IMG/VR virus record: IMGVR_UViG_3300025012_000043
Span: 48,590-112,589 of that record
Reading direction: 5' to 3' (one strand)
DNA: 64,000 nt
Source: a virus
The position numbers were made by a program, and so were the translations under genes. The notes beneath the pieces are model-generated. The model was given only the letters and a program-made list of their open reading frames with translations. It was not told the origin of the DNA and made no database searches. Of the stretch, positions 1 through 6,488 are shown one piece after another. Each line of letters begins with the position of its first letter. Position 1 is the stretch's first letter.

Positions 1-582
1 AAGAAATGCAAACTCAAAAGTTGGAATTGCTTCTAATGATTTAATGGAGGGAAAATTCTTAGATTGATTGCTTATCATTCTACTATTATTAAACTTTGCT
101 TCAACAAATGGTAGATGAGCAAACAACACGAATTTTATACCCATCATTCTTAAATCATTACATTTAAACTCAAACCATTCAACCGTATTAGTCCTACGAT
201 GTACTTCCCACGGCAACATAACGGCAACAATATCATCTTTAATACGAAATGTTGATTGCATTGTATCATATAAAAATACATTACTATGCAAATCAAGTGT
301 TTTTATTTCACTTAATAAATTTCTATCATCTGACAAATCATGATTACCAGTTAATATATGAACTCTAGTCCAATAAGGGAATGACTCCAGGAATTTATGA
401 AATCTTAATTCTTCTGCTCCGCCTTTCTGTATATCTCTACGATGATAGATATCACCAAGCAACACAACATTCTCACATCCGTGCTCATTAACAAATTTAA
501 TAATTTTATCTAAACACTCATCGGTGTCACTAACCCATTGTGAATCTAAATGAATATCTCCGACTATTAAAACTTTGGACAT
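1..582 (-). CDS. SbcD/Mre11-like metallophosphoesterase nuclease (3'-truncated by window edge; not in ORF track)
   Basis: Manual translation from ATG at 582: MSKVLIVGDIHLD...LLGDIYH...LTGNHD...FAH. These are calcineurin-like motifs. The frame is open to position 1 and lies in the replication module. Confidence 0.85.
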   Translation of the reverse strand, partial: MSKVLIVGDIHLDSQWVSDTDECLDKIIKFVNEHGCENVVLLGDIYHRRDIQKGGAEELRFHKFLESFPYWTRVHILTGNHDLSDDRNLLSEIKTLDLHSNVFLYDTMQSTFRIKDDIVAVMLPWEVHRRTNTVEWFEFKCNDLRMMGIKFVLFAHLPFVEAKFNNSRMISNQSKNFPSIKSLEAIPTFEFAFL

Positions 583-1658
583 CAGGCTACCTCCCTAATT
601 TCTGACGCTACCTCACGATAGCTCTCGTGGCTGATCCCCAGCCCGGCAATAAGAGTGTTGATCGCAGCATTAACATCGCGATCATGAACCGTCCCACAAA
701 CGTTACACTCCCAGTACCTTACCTTCAAGCCTGATTTCCCTGTTGGACCAGAACGCGCCCCACAGGTAGAACAGGTCATGGTGGAAAACTTAGATGGCAC
801 TTCGATATACTCTCTACCGCCTGCACGGCATTTGTAAGAAAGCATTGATCGAAGTTGTCCGTGGGCAGCTGCTCCCACGGACTTGCCAAACCCTGAACGA
901 GCCAAACCACCCAAATTATCCTTACTAATCGCAATGACTTGATTCTTGGACACTAATTCACGAGATATCTTATGATTTCTGTCCTTGCGCTGATTCTTAA
1001 TCCTTTCATGAAGTCTAGCAACTTGTTTACGATTTATACCACGCTGGGCTTGGCCCAAACGGATTAAATTATTCTGTAATTCCTTGGGGTGTTCAATCTT
1101 TTCACCAGTTGAAAGTGTAAGTAAGGTAACATATCCAGGGTCTATACCAACCTGATCATCAGAAACATGAGGGATAACATTAGGTTGGGCATTTATATTT
1201 AAACACAAGTACCAGCCAGAAGCCCGTTTAATAATGCGGCCTGAATTTATCTTGCCTTCAGGGATATCCTGTTTATGGAATTTTACTAAACCTAGCAATG
1301 GCATTCTAACCCTATTATTTAGGGGTGGTTTAATGGGGTCTGGAAATGGGATAGAATTTAACTTATTTCGACGGCCCTTAAATCTTGGCTTCCTAGAAAT
1401 TTTCTTAAAACAACGTTGCCAAGATAACCAAGTTTGATCTAACATGCCCTGTATAGTATGGCTGGGGATGCCAAGTTTGCCACTATGGCCAGTGAGTAAA
1501 TTCTGAAATGTTTTTCGTGAATAATAAACCTTATCCCTGGCATCTAACTCAATTTTACGAATAGCCCAATTCCAGACAGAAGTAAGATGAAACAGCCAAG
1601 TATTTAACTGGGCCTCTTGAACCTTGGTTAACTTTAATTTACGTTGATATTGAATCAT
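582..1658 (-). CDS. tnpB: TnpB-family RNA-guided nuclease with atypical RuvC-II, no adjacent TnpA
   Basis: N-terminal HTH-like region, KPRFK, RuvC-I VGIDPG, Zn finger CSTC/CNVC, RuvC-III HDRDVNAAIN. The usual hhhEDL of RuvC-II reads IAISKDNL. Confidence 0.92.
   Translation of the reverse strand: MIQYQRKLKLTKVQEAQLNTWLFHLTSVWNWAIRKIELDARDKVYYSRKTFQNLLTGHSGKLGIPSHTIQGMLDQTWLSWQRCFKKISRKPRFKGRRNKLNSIPFPDPIKPPLNNRVRMPLLGLVKFHKQDIPEGKINSGRIIKRASGWYLCLNINAQPNVIPHVSDDQVGIDPGYVTLLTLSTGEKIEHPKELQNNLIRLGQAQRGINRKQVARLHERIKNQRKDRNHKISRELVSKNQVIAISKDNLGGLARSGFGKSVGAAAHGQLRSMLSYKCRAGGREYIEVPSKFSTMTCSTCGARSGPTGKSGLKVRYWECNVCGTVHDRDVNAAINTLIAGLGISHESYREVASEIREVA
587..645 (-). ncRNA. Putative 3' part of TnpB omega-RNA scaffold plus guide, overlapping the tnpB 3' end
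   Basis: Minus-strand hairpins GGCUG-GGGAU-CAGCC (643-629) and GCUAUC-GUGA-GGUAGC (622-607, GNRA loop), then GUCA (606-603). omega-RNAs typically overlap the tnpB 3' end. Boundaries are inferred. Confidence 0.45.
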
Positions 1659-1679
1659 TCTTATTTTATCGTAGTACTT

Positions 1680-1889
1680 TCATTTGTCGTTAAACGACAC
1701 ACGAATTTTAATGCCTTCTTTTTTACCTAAAGAAATTAATATATCAGCTAAATCTTTAAGTGCAAATTGAATTTGGTCATGTAAATGATACCCAGTTGGT
1801 TTATTACATTTCTCATTTATATATCTTTTCATAACATCTCGTACATCAACATTAACTTCAATATTTGTGGTGACTGATACCATTGTCAT
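1680..1889 (-). CDS. Hypothetical protein (69 aa) between dnaE and tnpB
   Basis: ORF with AGGGAG SD inside the dnaE 3' end. Confidence 0.6.
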   Translation of the reverse strand: MTMVSVTTNIEVNVDVRDVMKRYINEKCNKPTGYHLHDQIQFALKDLADILISLGKKEGIKIRVSFNDK

Positions 1890-1891
1890 GT

Positions 1892-4800
1892 CTACTCCCT
1901 AATTACCGCATATATAGTCTGCCCAACAATATCTGTTAACGCTTTGGCTATAGTATTATTCAATATATCGAGATTCACAATATCACCAACAACCTGCTTA
2001 ATTAACATCCCCTCCATTTTTGATGGTTGCTTCATAAACCCAAGATTCTTGATCTTAATACCATATTGTGGCAATATTGGTTTACCAATTAATGTAAGCC
2101 CCTTGCCACGCTTACTACTGTATTTTACTATTGCCTTCAAAATAACTGGCGCAAATTTTTTGGCTAATGATGTCTTAATACACCCATAATTCACTCCACT
2201 AATAATCTTGTCATCTAAGTCTTCCGTATTAACATTAATATTCCTATCATGACATCCCTCTCGATCTATTAAAGAAACTGACCCAAATTTATTCCATGTT
2301 TGATCTTTCTTTGGATATATAACCTCAATCCCATTATTAATCCCATATATATATACGACTGATTGTGTTGGTAATGCTAGTGCCTTAGTAAGGGAGATGG
2401 CACCAACTGAATCTGCTAATGCCTGATACAAATCCAATACTGGATCAACATCAAGAAGTCCTATAGTACCTGATTCATTTTCCAATATCTCAGCCGACTC
2501 ATACTCTTCTTGCTTAACAAACCATGGCATAGTAATCATATTATTTGGTAGATCTAAACTAATCTGCCCATTCTCCATTGCTTTTTTATAGGCTGGCTTG
2601 TCAAATGCCCCAGATTCATTATATTTAATTGTCGCAGTTTTAATAGCTATACTCTTAGTACGTACATATTTCTTAATCTCTTGTATGTTTTTAACGATAT
2701 CCTTCCTATTTAATGTGGGATCAAACAAAAACGCTCCAGCCAATGCTAATTGTGAAATCTGGTTAGATGGGACGCTTTTGTTACGATTAATAAAATCAGC
2801 AAAACATTTATATTCTCCATTCATCTCACGTTCTTTAATAACCACTTTAGCCGATGATTCACCGATTCCCTTCACAGAAGACAAGCCAATATAAATAGTA
2901 TCTTTGAAAGCAGAAAATACTAGTTTTGACTTATTAATATTTGGCCTAGAGATCTTAATCCCCAATTTCTTACAGTCCGCTATTATAATTGAATGCTGGT
3001 CTGAATCAGTCATTATAAGATTGGCGCACATAAATTCTGTAGGATAATTTGCCTTCAAATATGCGGTTATATAAGTAATAACACCATACGCCGCAGCATG
3101 AGCCTTCGGCCACATATACCTTGCTGATGGCTTAATAAGCCCAAATATATATTCAGCGAATTCTTTTGTTTTGCCAAATCTAATAGCACTAGTTATAAAT
3201 TTCTCACCCTCTTCGTCAATTTCTTTGACTAATTTTTTACCAACAACCTTGCGCAAATGATCGGCTTCGGCCATTGAATATCCAGCCACCCTACGTGCTA
3301 TTTCCATGATCTGTTCTTGAAATAACATCATATAATGTGTAGGCGCAAGAACATCATCAATACATGGGTCAATTTTTGTCGGTGGCATCAACCCATTTTT
3401 AGTTCTTATATATTTCTCAGCCATAGACATTTTGATTACTTCATCATATGCCAAGGCCCCTGGCCTATATAAAGCATTCATGGCTATGATATGCTCAAAT
3501 TCTGTAGGAATCAATCCTTTCATCATATTTGTAAACCCATCACTTTCAGCCTGGAAAACACGACACGTATTGCCATCTTGTAATAATTTAAACGTTTTCA
3601 TGTCATCAAGCGGAAGTGTATATGGGTCAATATTAACCCCGTGATTTTCTTTGATCAACTCACATGTGATCTTAATAATATCTAATGTTGTTAAGCCAAG
3701 CAAATCAAATTTAACCAGCCCTACCTTTGATGCGACATACATATCACACATAAGCGCTGTTTCTGACTCACTATTTACCTTAAATGTTGGTATTATATCA
3801 CTAAACCGATCTTTTGAAATAATAACTCCCGATGCATGGATAGACACCGATTTAGGATTACCAGATAATCCCATAGCAAAATCATACCAGCTTTTATCAA
3901 CACGTGGGGATTTAAAGGCTTTCATCTTCTCCATAGCAGATATGATACTCTCTTCTTCTCTTTTGGCGGTCTCTTCAAATAACTCCTTGGGTTCCAATTC
4001 ATCCAATGCCCCGAGATCTTTAATTAAATCATCTACTCGCCTACGATCTGGTTCTATTGCTCGGATGGCCTCACGAATAGCTAACTTAGTAGTCATATTA
4101 TTAAATGTTGCAATCTTAGATACCTTGTCAGCACCAAAGATTGATTGAACTATCTCAATTACTTCTGGCCGCCGCCGTTGTTCAAAATCAATATCAACAT
4201 CTGGAAGATCAATACGACTGGGATTTAAAAACCTTTCAAACATGAGTTTATATTTAATCGGATCTATACCAGAAATCCCGAGAGCAAACAATACAAGACT
4301 ACCAGCACTACTTCCCCGGCCCGGTCCAATCAAGATCCCTCTTTTACGCACTTCCTTAATAACAATACCAAGGATTAGAAAGTAAGAAGAAAAATTGAGT
4401 TTCGAAATAATCCCCAATTCATATTCTAATCTATCTTTGTACTCCTTGGTGGCAACCCCTCTAGTTTTAAGGCCCTCATAAGCAAGAGTCTTTAAATATT
4501 CATCATTGGTCTCTATGTTTGCAGGTAAGAACGACTTGGGTAATTCTGGCATATACTTACCCATTTTGAACTCTATATTATAATCTTCTAACTTTTCATA
4601 GATCTCCATGGTATTATCAAATGCTACCTTAGGAATATTTGACGCAAACTTCTCTAATTCACCACGAGTCTTCATATAATATTCAGCATTCAGAATAGCT
4701 GGCTTACTTATGTCGTCTGGAAATTCACCATATACTACCCCACGTTTTCTATCTAAAATATGTGTACCAAACTGAAGTGATAACAGTGCATCCTGAACTT

Positions 4801-5428
4801 CAGCATCACTTTTATTTAAATAATGAACATCATTAGTAATAATCGGCTTAATATGAAACTTTTCTGCCATTTCTAACATAACATCTACCCAACCAGCTTG
4901 CATTGGTACGCCGGTTTCCATGACTTCCACATAAAGGTCATCTTTAAAAATTGATTTTAAACGAGATACTGTGGCCACAGCCTCATCAGCTTTATCATTA
5001 TAAATGTCTCTAGCAATTAACCCGTGTAAACATGCAGTTGAACAGATAATGCCCTCACTAAATCTGGCAATAACATCTAATGACATTCTTGGCTTATAAT
5101 AAAAATATTCAAAAGCATCAGACACTATCTTTATTAAATTTTGATATCCAATACGATTCTTAGCGATTAAAACTATATGCCCAAGTTTCTCTCTACCTTC
5201 AAATTTCCTCTCTTTTGATACATACCCCTCAATGCCTATGCCGCACTTCAAATCAAACTCTTTGCAAGCCTCGTAAAATGGAATGGCACCAAACATTGTG
5301 CCATGGTCAGTTAAACAAGCCCCCTGAAACCCAAGCTTCTTGGTATGCTCTACTATTTTCTTAGGTGATGTGGTGCCGTCCATCAATGAATAAAATGAGT
5401 GCTGGTGGCAATGTATGAAATCTTGCAT
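1892..5428 (-). CDS. dnaE: DNA polymerase III alpha subunit (family C)
   Basis: PHP domain (HQHS, LTDHG, TNDVHY), GPGRGSSAGS, FERFLNP, PDVDIDF, HASG, KFDLLGL. Start reassigned to ATG 5428 (AAAGGA SD, directly after the upstream stop). Confidence 0.97.
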   Translation of the reverse strand: MQDFIHCHQHSFYSLMDGTTSPKKIVEHTKKLGFQGACLTDHGTMFGAIPFYEACKEFDLKCGIGIEGYVSKERKFEGREKLGHIVLIAKNRIGYQNLIKIVSDAFEYFYYKPRMSLDVIARFSEGIICSTACLHGLIARDIYNDKADEAVATVSRLKSIFKDDLYVEVMETGVPMQAGWVDVMLEMAEKFHIKPIITNDVHYLNKSDAEVQDALLSLQFGTHILDRKRGVVYGEFPDDISKPAILNAEYYMKTRGELEKFASNIPKVAFDNTMEIYEKLEDYNIEFKMGKYMPELPKSFLPANIETNDEYLKTLAYEGLKTRGVATKEYKDRLEYELGIISKLNFSSYFLILGIVIKEVRKRGILIGPGRGSSAGSLVLFALGISGIDPIKYKLMFERFLNPSRIDLPDVDIDFEQRRRPEVIEIVQSIFGADKVSKIATFNNMTTKLAIREAIRAIEPDRRRVDDLIKDLGALDELEPKELFEETAKREEESIISAMEKMKAFKSPRVDKSWYDFAMGLSGNPKSVSIHASGVIISKDRFSDIIPTFKVNSESETALMCDMYVASKVGLVKFDLLGLTTLDIIKITCELIKENHGVNIDPYTLPLDDMKTFKLLQDGNTCRVFQAESDGFTNMMKGLIPTEFEHIIAMNALYRPGALAYDEVIKMSMAEKYIRTKNGLMPPTKIDPCIDDVLAPTHYMMLFQEQIMEIARRVAGYSMAEADHLRKVVGKKLVKEIDEEGEKFITSAIRFGKTKEFAEYIFGLIKPSARYMWPKAHAAAYGVITYITAYLKANYPTEFMCANLIMTDSDQHSIIIADCKKLGIKISRPNINKSKLVFSAFKDTIYIGLSSVKGIGESSAKVVIKEREMNGEYKCFADFINRNKSVPSNQISQLALAGAFLFDPTLNRKDIVKNIQEIKKYVRTKSIAIKTATIKYNESGAFDKPAYKKAMENGQISLDLPNNMITMPWFVKQEEYESAEILENESGTIGLLDVDPVLDLYQALADSVGAISLTKALALPTQSVVYIYGINNGIEVIYPKKDQTWNKFGSVSLIDREGCHDRNINVNTEDLDDKIISGVNYGCIKTSLAKKFAPVILKAIVKYSSKRGKGLTLIGKPILPQYGIKIKNLGFMKQPSKMEGMLIKQVVGDIVNLDILNNTIAKALTDIVGQTIYAVIRE

Positions 5429-5429
5429 G

Positions 5430-6488
5430 TTATCCTTTCTTACTGTTTCTTCTTGCGTACACATTATTAAATATTACATCCATAGTTTCTGGTAATAAAG
5501 TACTGGTTATAATATTCAATTGTTTCTTTTCTATCGTATTCATGGCCTCCATAACCATTGATCTAATATTACCTGGAGCATGAATTAGTCCTGATATGGC
5601 ATTATACCAATCACGAGGCCGTTGCTCTTCTACTAATATACCATTTACACCATTAGTAATAACTTCTTGATATGGAACAATATTAGATGCCACTGTAACC
5701 GCACCAACCGCCGTATACTCTAACCATTTAATATTACTCTTACTCTTATTAAAAATATTGTGTTCAAGTGGTACTATACCAATATGTGGCTGAATAGATA
5801 CCAATGTTTGTAGATAGTCTTTAACTGGTAACCAAGGTATATACTTAATACGAGTATCATCCTTTAGCCCTGCTGGTATCCATCCCATAAAAAACAATTT
5901 AATCTTATCACCAAAGGTATCGAGTAACTTAATAATCGCTCCCTCTACACCCTTAAAATCATCAATATGTGAAGGCCCTCCAGCATATACTATGCGTATT
6001 TCTTTATCAACATTATATGGGCGCTGAGCAATAAAATTTTTGTCTAATTCAATCATATTAGGGATACAATAAATATTCCTATTATAACATTTCATTTGAT
6101 TCTTTAAAAATTCGGTAGAAACTATAACTGCATCCGCTGATTTCATAAAATTTCTAACATTTTGCTTAGCATTATTATCTATAAACTTATAGGCAGGATT
6201 TATGGGCCGTACATTAAAGAAATCATCATCAGTTTCATATCCCACTATTGCACCAGATTCCTTTGCGGCATTCCATAACGGTTTAACTTTGTCCTCAAAA
6301 TGCCTTTGGAATATAATCATATCATAACAATACATATCAGCTATCTGTAATTCAGTAGCACAAACTATATGATATATATCAGTATTTAATTGTAAATACC
6401 AGGCTGGTAACATACACCGATAGTTTCCACAGCCTTGCCGATCGGAAAGCGTATATAACAATTTTCTTTTATTTACTCGCTTCCTCAT
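5430..6488 (-). CDS. GT-B (GT4-like) glycosyltransferase
   Basis: GCGNYR, YETDDD, VSTEFL, GGPSH..D and PLEHNIFNKSKSNIKWLEY motifs, typical of phage GT-B proteins. Confidence 0.8.
   Translation of the reverse strand: MRKRVNKRKLLYTLSDRQGCGNYRCMLPAWYLQLNTDIYHIVCATELQIADMYCYDMIIFQRHFEDKVKPLWNAAKESGAIVGYETDDDFFNVRPINPAYKFIDNNAKQNVRNFMKSADAVIVSTEFLKNQMKCYNRNIYCIPNMIELDKNFIAQRPYNVDKEIRIVYAGGPSHIDDFKGVEGAIIKLLDTFGDKIKLFFMGWIPAGLKDDTRIKYIPWLPVKDYLQTLVSIQPHIGIVPLEHNIFNKSKSNIKWLEYTAVGAVTVASNIVPYQEVITNGVNGILVEEQRPRDWYNAISGLIHAPGNIRSMVMEAMNTIEKKQLNIITSTLLPETMDVIFNNVYARRNSKKG

What the first reader, a model, noticed from the sequence alone, without database searches (positions are those of the whole stretch)
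582..1904. Solo TnpB wedged into the dnaE-sbcD operon, with altered RuvC-II and a predicted guide resembling the dnaE 3' end
Seen: no TnpA, only 21 nt upstream, and the stop overlaps the next start (TGATG). The RuvC-II Glu is Ser with an Asp two residues later; the RuvC-I and -III Asp are intact. Two hairpins and GTCA are followed by GAAATTAGGGAGGTAG (602-587), which matches the dnaE end GTAATTAGGGAG-TAG (1906-1892; 10 bp exact). Both ORFs end ...IRE. Inference A: the 69-aa ORF + tnpB cassette entered at the dnaE end and acts as an RNA-guided homing nuclease against the empty dnaE-sbcD junction of competing phages, with its own dnaE end mismatched. Inference B: it is a nuclease-dead TldR-like regulator binding there. 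Caveat: the match includes a Shine-Dalgarno sequence.
Basis: partly seen in the sequence, partly recalled or inferred. Interest (0 to 1): 0.75.

Follow-up and report, generated by a model that had tools for sequence, protein, structure and literature searches.

The report
Transposase-less TnpB supplying sbcD's start codon

Summary
The raw observations hold: solo tnpB, 21-nt upstream gap, TGATG overlap, Ser for the RuvC-II Glu with Asp at +2, and a 10-bp identity with the dnaE end. The interpretation built on them mostly fails.

- **The 69-aa ORF is native.** Three distinct tnpB-less relatives (four loci) have dnaE, a homologous 67-aa ORF, then sbcD. The insertion is window 1678..575 only.
- **The insertion is precise.** It lies 3' of TGAA, where the small ORF's stop overlaps sbcD's start. 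Deleting it in silico restores that ATGA overlap and an MKVLIVGD N-terminus, as in the relatives.
- **The proposed guide is scaffold.** A covariance model built only from 12 relatives matches window 713..575 (92 bits, E about 6e-23). The predicted guide is 574..559, sbcD codons 3-8.
- **Ser-x-Asp is clade-wide.** Relatives that still carry TnpA have it too, so it is not a local inactivation.
- **This copy cannot transpose.** It lacks TnpA and the left-end hairpin. Its right end carries sbcD's SD and ATG.

Best reading: an immobilised IS200/IS605 element that probably still acts as an RNA-guided nuclease against uninterrupted alleles. Cutting is not shown. Unchecked notes from this scan report start-codon-donating right ends on other DNA. 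I found no paper describing it.

The parts
1892..5464 (-). dnaE-type DNA polymerase III alpha gene (1190 aa). Its last codons (IRE) carry the GGGAG Shine-Dalgarno for the next ORF.
   Evidence: Pfam PHP, DNA_pol3_alpha, finger and HHH_6 domains. It is 80-81% identical to the L002 protein. Relatives have the same gene end.
1680..1889 (-). Native 69-aa ORF of unknown function. It is not part of the insertion.
   Evidence: Homologous 67-aa ORFs sit between dnaE and sbcD in the tnpB-less relatives L002/L003, L019 and L020. It has no Pfam, PHROG or NCBIfam family.
1679..1682 (-). TGAA: the TAM-like motif at the left junction. It is part of the ancestral ATGA stop/start overlap of the small ORF and sbcD.
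   Evidence: TGAA sits just 5' of the inferred left end in 8 of 13 family copies (AGAA in 3, then TGAT and TGAG). All four empty-site loci read AAATGAA at the same place.
1659..1678 (-). 20-nt remnant where the left end should be. It has no subterminal hairpin.
   Evidence: Complete relatives have about 16 nt, a GC-rich hairpin and 30-40 nt before the first gene. Here only 20 nt separate TGAA from the tnpB ATG.
582..1658 (-). tnpB, 358 aa, with Asp173, Ser245-x-Asp247, Asp328 and a CxxC...CxxC zinc finger.
   Evidence: It keeps 111 of 115 columns that are invariant in 13 relatives.
575..713 (-). Omega-RNA scaffold, lying almost entirely inside the tnpB reading frame.
   Evidence: Covariance model R1, built from 12 relatives without the window, matches at 92.4 bits, E 5.9e-23, full length, and is the only hit in 64 kb. 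Covariation in the family supports the structure.
691..694 (-). 5' arm (GGAC) of the long-range stem. It pairs with 580-577 (GUCC).
   Evidence: Relatives have GAAC/GUUC or GAGC/GCUC at these columns. The window's pairing is the only G-C at that pair.
582..598 (-). Degenerate last hairpin (5 bp including a G-U pair).
   Evidence: The model alignment marks non-standard pairs and deletions where relatives have a GC-rich stem of up to about 7-9 bp.
575..583 (-). Terminal right-end motif GATGTCCAA (family consensus GAGGYTCAA). It contains the sbcD ATG (582-580).
   Evidence: It aligns with high posterior probability to the model's last 9 positions. Flanks diverge immediately after this motif in all relatives.
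559..574 (-). Predicted 16-nt guide and target-matching flank, equal to sbcD codons 3-8.
   Evidence: This is the first 16 nt after the scaffold end. The assignment follows the established rule that the TnpB guide is the DNA flanking the right end. It has no other match of 2 or fewer mismatches in the window.
1..582 (-). sbcD-like Mre11-family phosphoesterase gene (348 aa in full; it runs off the window).
   Evidence: Pfam Metallophos and PHROG SbcD-like matches. The full ORF is L001 452-1498. Orthologues in relatives start MKILIVGD.
587..602 (-). It is reassigned to the scaffold.

Best explanation
This is an immobilised copy of an IS200/IS605-family (IS608-like, tnpB-only) element.

Shown:
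- It is inserted without target duplication immediately 3' of TGAA, where the stop of a native 69-aa ORF overlapped the sbcD start.
- It has no TnpA and no left-end hairpin, and its right-end hairpin is degraded, so TnpA-type transposition should no longer work.
- The TnpB protein and the omega-RNA scaffold are as well conserved as in mobile relatives.
- The tnpB frame now runs through the right end. The right-end tip carries a GGGAGG Shine-Dalgarno and an in-frame ATG, so sbcD reads MSKVLIVGD where the ancestral gene read MKVLIVGD.

Inferred:
- The operon transcript yields an omega-RNA whose scaffold ends at 575 and whose guide is 574-559.
- TnpB with this RNA cuts DNA that has TGAA directly followed by that sequence. 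That is the uninterrupted small-ORF/sbcD junction of closely related co-infecting phages.
- Recombinational repair from the tnpB-bearing genome would then copy the element and its flanking markers (non-restorative homing, or marker exclusion).
- The phage's own copy escapes because the right-end tip (TCCAA) replaces the TAM.
- Asp247 probably stands in for the missing RuvC-II Glu.
For: - **Empty sites.** Four tnpB-less loci (three distinct sequences) show dnaE, small ORF, sbcD with an AAATGAA overlap. Removing 1678..575 recreates that overlap and an MK[IV]LIVGD start.
- **Family identity.** Relatives L006, L011, L016 and L029 carry a Y1 TnpA directly upstream. Their ends follow the GAAT-hairpin-TCAA layout.
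- **TAM.** TGAA precedes the inferred left end in 8 of 13 copies.
- **Scaffold boundary.** The covariance model hit is 713..575 at 92 bits. Family covariation beats 500 of 500 shuffles and all slid controls. The long-range stem is kept here as GGAC/GUCC.
- **Protein integrity.** The window's protein keeps 111 of 115 family-invariant columns, within the leave-one-out range of 1-11 changes seen for the relatives. An 80%-identical, equally long homologue, P0003, has the same IREVA end.
- **Ser-x-Asp.** The motif is conserved in essentially all of the top 120 homologues. Conserved RuvC-II rearrangements are predicted to be active in Altae-Tran et al. 2023 (PMC10691335).
- **Start-codon donation recurs.** All 3 right ends that carry the G-to-T (ATG) change open in frame into the downstream ORF: this window, L005 (a 1146-aa lipoprotein) and L112 (a 34-aa membrane peptide).
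- **Homing concept.** TnpB-driven homing is established for IS605-family elements (PMC10690162 abstract; PMC13565253).
Against: - No RNA, cleavage or homing data exist for this element.
- No natural allele matching the guide was found. The only empty sites come from 70-80%-identical phages and have 5 or more mismatches to the guide, several of them TAM-proximal.
- The last scaffold hairpin is degenerate, and its importance for TnpB binding in this clade is unknown.
- No member of the Ser-x-Asp clade has been assayed, to my knowledge.
- The TAM is inferred from left-end positions, not from experiments.
- The 20-nt left remnant begins with 7 nt that resemble the right flank (5 of 7). This makes an MKVL-coding pseudo-start that the simple insertion model leaves to chance (roughly p = 0.03).
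- The genomic context of P0003 could not be fetched.
Confidence: 0.6

Rival explanations
1. Trapped, functionally inert remnant. The element landed in the sbcD start and lost its means of transposition. It persists only because its right end now provides sbcD's ribosome-binding site and ATG, so any imprecise loss would silence sbcD. TnpB and its RNA do nothing useful.
For: - There is no TnpA in the record.
- The left-end hairpin is absent and the right-end hairpin degenerate.
- No matching target allele was found.
- The single-sequence fold is not unusually stable, z = -1.2.
Against: - A neutral 1.1-kb ORF should decay. Instead it keeps 111 of 115 family-invariant residues, all catalytic and zinc ligands, and full length.
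- An 80%-identical full-length homologue has the same unusual C-terminus.
- The scaffold scores within the family range, and its long-range stem is maintained.
Confidence: 0.25
2. A nuclease-dead or self-directed regulator, which is the reader's inference B broadened. TnpB with its RNA binds without cutting. It would act either at DNA, as TldR does, or on its own transcript, where the scaffold's 3' end is also the sbcD translation-initiation region, and so tune SbcD output.
For: - The canonical RuvC-II Glu is absent.
- The gene is operon-embedded with stop/start overlap.
- The sbcD ATG and second codon lie inside the long-range scaffold stem, so RNP formation and sbcD translation on one RNA molecule should be mutually exclusive. 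This last point is inference.
Against: - Ser-x-Asp is clade-wide and present in TnpA-linked, evidently mobile copies.
- RuvC-I, RuvC-III and the zinc finger are intact, and there is no C-terminal truncation as in TldR.
- The guide matches only its own flank, which lacks the TAM.
Confidence: 0.1
3. A 69-aa-ORF plus tnpB cassette entered at the dnaE end, and its guide (602-587) targets a dnaE-sbcD empty junction.
For: A 10-bp exact identity between 600-591 and 1904-1895 occurs nowhere else in the window.
Against: - The small ORF is present, and tnpB absent, in four related loci.
- In those loci dnaE ends with the same SD-bearing codons, so that copy is ancestral.
- The tnpB-side copy lies inside the model-aligned scaffold.
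- An 8-mer within it also repeats locally 21 nt upstream, which suggests a local origin.
- The 16-nt match requires a gap.
Confidence: 0.02

Closest known systems
IS608 / ISDra2-type IS200/IS605 elements (Y1 TnpA plus TnpB and omega-RNA; tnpB-only IS1341 derivatives)
   Same: - TnpB domain architecture.
- The omega-RNA is read from the tnpB 3' end plus the right end, and the guide is the flanking DNA.
- Insertion is 3' of a short motif, without target duplication.
- The right-end layout is a GAAT box, a hairpin, then TCAA. From memory (Barabas et al. 2008), this matches IS608.
- Relatives carry a Y1 TnpA.
   Different: - RuvC-II has Ser-x-Asp instead of Glu.
- The inferred TAM is TGAA, against TTAC or TTGAT.
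- This copy has no TnpA and no left-end hairpin.
- The tnpB frame runs through the right end instead of stopping 32-57 nt before it.
- The last hairpin is replaced by a Shine-Dalgarno, and the tip carries the next gene's ATG.
TldR (TnpB-like nuclease-dead repressors, often phage-encoded)
   Same: A TnpB homologue without a transposase, in a phage, with an altered RuvC-II position.
   Different: - TldR proteins lose catalytic residues and the C-terminal RuvC part.
- Their guides match host promoters (fliC, oppA).
- Here RuvC-I, RuvC-III and the zinc finger are intact, the RuvC-II change is clade-wide, and the guide is the element's own flank.
Free-standing phage homing endonucleases (T4 Seg/Mob type; intronless homing and marker exclusion)
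   Same: A selfish nuclease gene sits between conserved replication and repair genes, is absent from related phages, and is expected to cut the allele that lacks it during co-infection (PMC13565253).
   Different: Recognition would be RNA-guided, and self versus non-self would be decided by presence or absence of the insertion (a TAM replaced by the right-end tip), not by protein reading of sequence polymorphisms.
IStrons (IS605-family elements fused to group I introns)
   Same: A way for an IS605-family, TnpB-bearing element to sit inside a gene without killing it (PMC10690162).
   Different: There is no intron and no splicing. Harm is avoided at the translation level, because the right end donates a new in-frame start codon.

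Membership tests
TnpB (IS200/IS605 RNA-guided nuclease) | OrfB_IS605 / RuvC plus zinc-ribbon (TNB) domain architecture | tested here: met
   PF01385 at 50 bits, PF07282 at 73 bits, NF040570 at 212 bits (cut-off 100), phrog_506 at 247 bits.
TnpB (IS200/IS605 RNA-guided nuclease) | RuvC catalytic triad Asp-Glu-Asp | tested here: not met
   Asp173 and Asp328 are present. The Glu position (ISDra2 E278) is Ser245, with an invariant Asp247 at +2. This is a clade-wide rearrangement, of the kind predicted to be active in PMC10691335. A catalytic role for Asp247 is inferred, not shown.
TnpB (IS200/IS605 RNA-guided nuclease) | Conserved structured RNA (omega-RNA) overlapping the tnpB 3' end and ending at the right end | tested here: met
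   Model R1, built from relatives only, hits 713..575 at 92.4 bits, E 5.9e-23. Family covariation is shown. The last hairpin is degenerate here.
TnpB (IS200/IS605 RNA-guided nuclease) | RNA-guided, TAM-dependent DNA cleavage | not testable with these tools
   Needs biochemistry or interference assays.
Mobile IS200/IS605 element | Y1 TnpA in cis or in the same genome | tested here: not met
   No PF01797 match in the 112.6-kb record, which is 76% complete. Relatives L006, L011, L016 and L029 have one.
Mobile IS200/IS605 element | Subterminal hairpins at both the left and right ends | tested here: not met
   Only 20 nt lie between the TAM and the tnpB ATG, with no hairpin. The right-end hairpin is reduced to 5 bp with a G-U pair.
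Mobile IS200/IS605 element | Insertion 3' of a short target motif, without target-site duplication | tested here: met
   In-silico removal of 1678..575 restores the AAATGAA overlap and the MK[IV]LIVGD start seen in four empty-site loci. TGAA precedes 8 of 13 family left ends.
TldR (nuclease-dead TnpB-like repressor) | Loss of RuvC catalytic residues with C-terminal truncation | tested here: not met
   The protein is full length, with RuvC-I, RuvC-III and the zinc finger intact.
TldR (nuclease-dead TnpB-like repressor) | Guide complementary to a promoter or 5' region of a regulated gene elsewhere | tested here: not met
   The guide matches only its own flank. The next-best site in the window has 3 mismatches, which is within chance. 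The host genome is unknown.

The most novel reading that the evidence does not exclude
The same roughly 30 nt of RNA serve two roles. They are the 3' end of the TnpB guide-RNA scaffold, including a stem that sequesters the sbcD AUG, and they are also sbcD's ribosome-binding site and start. TnpB binding or processing of the operon transcript would then gate SbcD synthesis, while the RNP also acts as an RNA-guided exclusion and homing nuclease between co-infecting phages. That would be a transposon end exapted at once as a translation signal and as a weapon.
Probability: 0.15. Interest if true: 0.75.

Novelty: new variant of a known kind. Interest (0 to 1): 0.5.

Why it matters
It shows how an RNA-guided transposon can sit inside a tightly packed phage replication and repair operon without breaking it. 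It lands on a start codon that happens to contain its target motif, and its right end evolves a replacement ribosome-binding site and ATG.

This copy has lost everything needed for TnpA transposition. It has kept the nuclease and the guide scaffold. That combination makes it a natural test case for two questions:
- Do phage TnpBs spread or compete by RNA-guided homing alone?
- Is the Ser-x-Asp active-site variant catalytically competent?

It also cautions against reading guides from hairpins alone. The scaffold/guide boundary had to be set by family comparison.

Tried and rejected
- **Contig of the closest homologue.** Whether it sits at the same locus is unknown.
- **Nucleotide search.** Megablast of 1-6000 against GenBank phages found nothing.
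- **SbcD as a query.** It found no relatives in viral contigs.
- **Genome scan.** The genome-contig scan gave only four close family members (L029-L032). The rest were distant TnpBs.
- **First alignment of the 3' end, rejected.** I first aligned the GGGAGG run of the window with the family's terminal GGGGAGG. The model alignment and the long-range stem favour the alternative, in which GATGTCCAA is the terminal motif.
- **L014/L120 left out.** This subfamily has a TGATG overlap with a DnaN-like gene and looked like a further example of start donation. Its right-end order differs and the model alignment is poor, so I did not count it.
- **L005 corrected.** I first took it to lack a left end. It probably has an 80-nt left end starting after TGAT.
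- **Single-sequence folding.** It was uninformative, z = -1.2.
- **No structure prediction.** The tools return no coordinates, so the placement of Asp247 rests on alignment and conservation only.
- **Literature.** Four searches found no paper describing start-codon donation by IS605 right ends or TnpB homing between phages. A fifth attempt failed on a term-format error.

Full report
**Anatomy.**
On the minus strand the window reads as follows:
- dnaE, 5464..1892, 1190 aa, with Pol III alpha domains
- a 69-aa ORF, 1889..1680, with no family match
- a 21-nt spacer
- tnpB, 1658..582, 358 aa
- an sbcD-like phosphoesterase gene starting at 582, whose ATG overlaps the tnpB stop

The window is part of a 112.6-kb IMG/VR virus record. 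That record has one tnpB and no Y1 transposase.

**The 69-aa ORF is native.**
Protein-anchored searches found related phages. L002/L003 have DnaE 80% identical. L019 and L020 are about 72% identical over the C-terminal third.
- In all of them dnaE is followed by a homologous 67-aa ORF and then directly by sbcD. The small ORF's stop overlaps the sbcD start in an AAATGAA context, and SbcD begins MKILIVGD. There is no tnpB.
- dnaE in these phages also ends with an Arg-Glu codon pair that forms a GGGAG Shine-Dalgarno for the small ORF.
- The dnaE end in the window is therefore ancestral, and the small ORF is not cargo.

**What family the element belongs to.**
The closest TnpBs are 51-68% identical in viral contigs, with one 80%-identical protein, P0003, from a read-archive assembly.
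- Several relatives (L006, L011, L016, L029) have a Y1 HUH transposase immediately upstream. This is an IS200/IS605 family.
- Their right ends share one plan: a GAAT box, a GC-rich hairpin, then GAGGYTCAA. After that the flanks diverge.
- Their left ends have a similar hairpin about 16 nt inside the boundary. The boundary is preceded by TGAA in 8 of 13 copies, AGAA in 3, and TGAT and TGAG in one each.
- I take TGAA as the likely TAM. This is inferred from position, not tested.

**Where the scaffold ends.**
I aligned the last 150 nt of 12 relatives, leaving the window out. RNAalifold predicted four helices, including a long-range stem between the zinc-finger codons and the last bases of the right end.
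- A covariance model from that alignment finds exactly one hit in the 64-kb window, at 713..575, 92.4 bits, E 5.9e-23, full length. The window's GATGTCCAA aligns confidently to the terminal GAGGYTCAA.
- On 26 family members, 90% of cells form pairs and 18 of 27 pairs show double changes. This exceeds 500 of 500 shuffles and all slid controls. The caveats are that the alignment is fitted to the model and that helix 2 is coding.
- In the long-range stem, relatives have GAAC/GUUC or GAGC/GCUC. The window has GGAC/GUCC, the only G-C at that pair. The upstream change is a synonymous Gly codon.
- The scaffold therefore ends at 575. By the established TnpB rule the guide is the flank, 574..559, which is sbcD codons 3-8.
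It is scaffold.

**The insertion is precise.**
Removing 1678..575 joins the TGAA of the small-ORF stop to the flank.
- This restores an ATGA overlap and an SbcD that starts MKVLIVGD, in the same register as all four empty-site loci.
- That fits an IS200/IS605 insertion 3' of its target motif without duplication.

**What is unusual in this copy.**
- Only 20 nt lie between the TAM and the tnpB ATG, so the left-end hairpin is gone.
- The tnpB frame does not stop 32-57 nt before the right end, as in 22 of 24 relatives. It runs to 7 nt before it. P0003 shares the resulting IREVA terminus.
- The GC-rich last hairpin is replaced by a 5-bp stem that contains GGGAGG.
- The terminal motif has a G-to-T change that creates an ATG in frame with sbcD, adding one Ser codon.
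- In short, the signals TnpA needs are lost, while the protein and the rest of the RNA are kept.
- L112 independently shows a left-end hairpin deletion with tnpB ATGA-coupled to the upstream ORF.

**The right-end ATG recurs.**
Among about 27 family loci, three right ends have the G-to-T (ATG) variant.
- In all three the ATG opens in frame into the downstream ORF: sbcD here, a 1146-aa lipoprotein in L005, and a 34-aa membrane peptide in L112 whose native TTG start lay in the TAM.
- Earlier, mostly unchecked notes of this scan describe the same behaviour on other DNA. My searches found no publication of it.

**The RuvC-II site.**
HMMER alignment to ISDra2 TnpB and to a designed relative puts Ser245 at the Glu278 position.
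- The Ser and an Asp at +2 are invariant in a 15-sequence alignment and in essentially all of the top 120 homologues, including TnpA-linked copies.
- Altae-Tran et al. 2023 describe several TnpB clades with conserved RuvC-II rearrangements and argue that they are active (PMC10691335).
- The window's protein keeps 111 of 115 residues invariant in 13 relatives. That is no worse than the relatives themselves in leave-one-out comparison.
- The change is therefore not evidence of inactivation. A TldR-like reading lacks its defining features.

**The 10-bp identity.**
It is real and unusual for random sequence.
- Both copies are Shine-Dalgarno regions in the same frame, 8-10 nt before an ATG.
- The dnaE copy is ancestral.
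- The tnpB copy overlaps an 8-mer that repeats locally 21 nt upstream (614-607 and 593-586).
- I regard it as convergence on a ribosome-binding site, or a small local or ectopic copy. It is not a guide-target pair. Its origin is not settled.

**Mechanism, and what is not shown.**
I think the likeliest reading is that the operon transcript yields an omega-RNA with the sbcD-derived guide. TnpB would then cut uninterrupted TGAA-plus-target junctions in closely related co-infecting genomes, and repair would copy the element.
- Its own locus is protected because TCCAA replaces the TAM.
- No matching empty allele, RNA or cleavage has been seen. The available empty sites are too diverged, with 5 or more of 16 positions mismatched.
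- An inert, trapped remnant remains a serious rival.
- The sbcD ATG lies inside the scaffold's long-range stem, so guide-RNA formation and sbcD translation may compete. This is speculative but testable.

**Limits.**
- The host is unknown.
- The TAM, the role of Asp247 and all activity are inferences.

Noticed in passing
window 1683-1666 (-): Right after the small ORF, the left junction reads ATG AAA GTA CTA CGA TAA. That is MKVL, like the SbcD N-terminus, with synonymous differences from the real sbcD codons at 576-568. It is either chance (5 of 7 nt after the TAM, roughly p = 0.03) or a trace of a duplication or co-conversion event that the simple insertion model does not explain.
   Followed up: partly
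window 614-607 and 593-586 (-): The 8-bp direct repeat GAGGTAGC occurs once as the 3' arm of the second scaffold hairpin and once inside the Shine-Dalgarno-bearing replacement of the last hairpin. It may show how that hairpin was rebuilt, or allow alternative pairing with 622-619.
   Followed up: no
window 26528-27709 (-): A 393-aa adenylosuccinate-synthetase homologue scores below the NCBIfam cut-offs for both PurA and PurZ (PurZ model 200 bits against 300). It matches solved phage PurZ and PurA-like structures. If it is a PurZ, the genome may carry 2-aminoadenine, which would bear on TAM (TGAA) and R-loop recognition by TnpB.
   Followed up: partly
L112 1440-1510 and 2584-2700: Another phage copy without a left-end hairpin. 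The upstream ORF is extended by 10 codons and ATGA-coupled to tnpB. Removing the element would restore that ORF's TAG stop. The right-end ATG starts a 34-aa hydrophobic peptide whose native start was probably the TTG of the TAM.
   Followed up: partly
L005 6086-9526: The right-end ATG (GATGTTCAA) opens a 1146-aa ORF that begins with a lipoprotein-type signal peptide. A 108-aa ORF upstream of the element begins with a similar signal peptide.
   Followed up: partly
L011 about 4470-4505: An inverted, right-end-like sequence (the reverse complement of the GAAT-hairpin-TCAA module) lies just outside the left end of a complete tnpA-tnpB element. It is probably a remnant of a second copy in the opposite orientation.
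   Followed up: no
L014 6040-6110 and L120 930-1000: In a more distant subfamily (51-52% identical), the GGAAT box follows rather than precedes the motif that the model takes as the right-end tip. In L014 the tnpB stop overlaps (TGATG) the start of a DnaN-like gene. The right-end boundary there is unresolved.
   Followed up: partly
window 5430-6488 (-): A 352-aa group-1 glycosyltransferase-like ORF overlaps the dnaE start by 35 nt, immediately upstream in the same operon.
   Followed up: no
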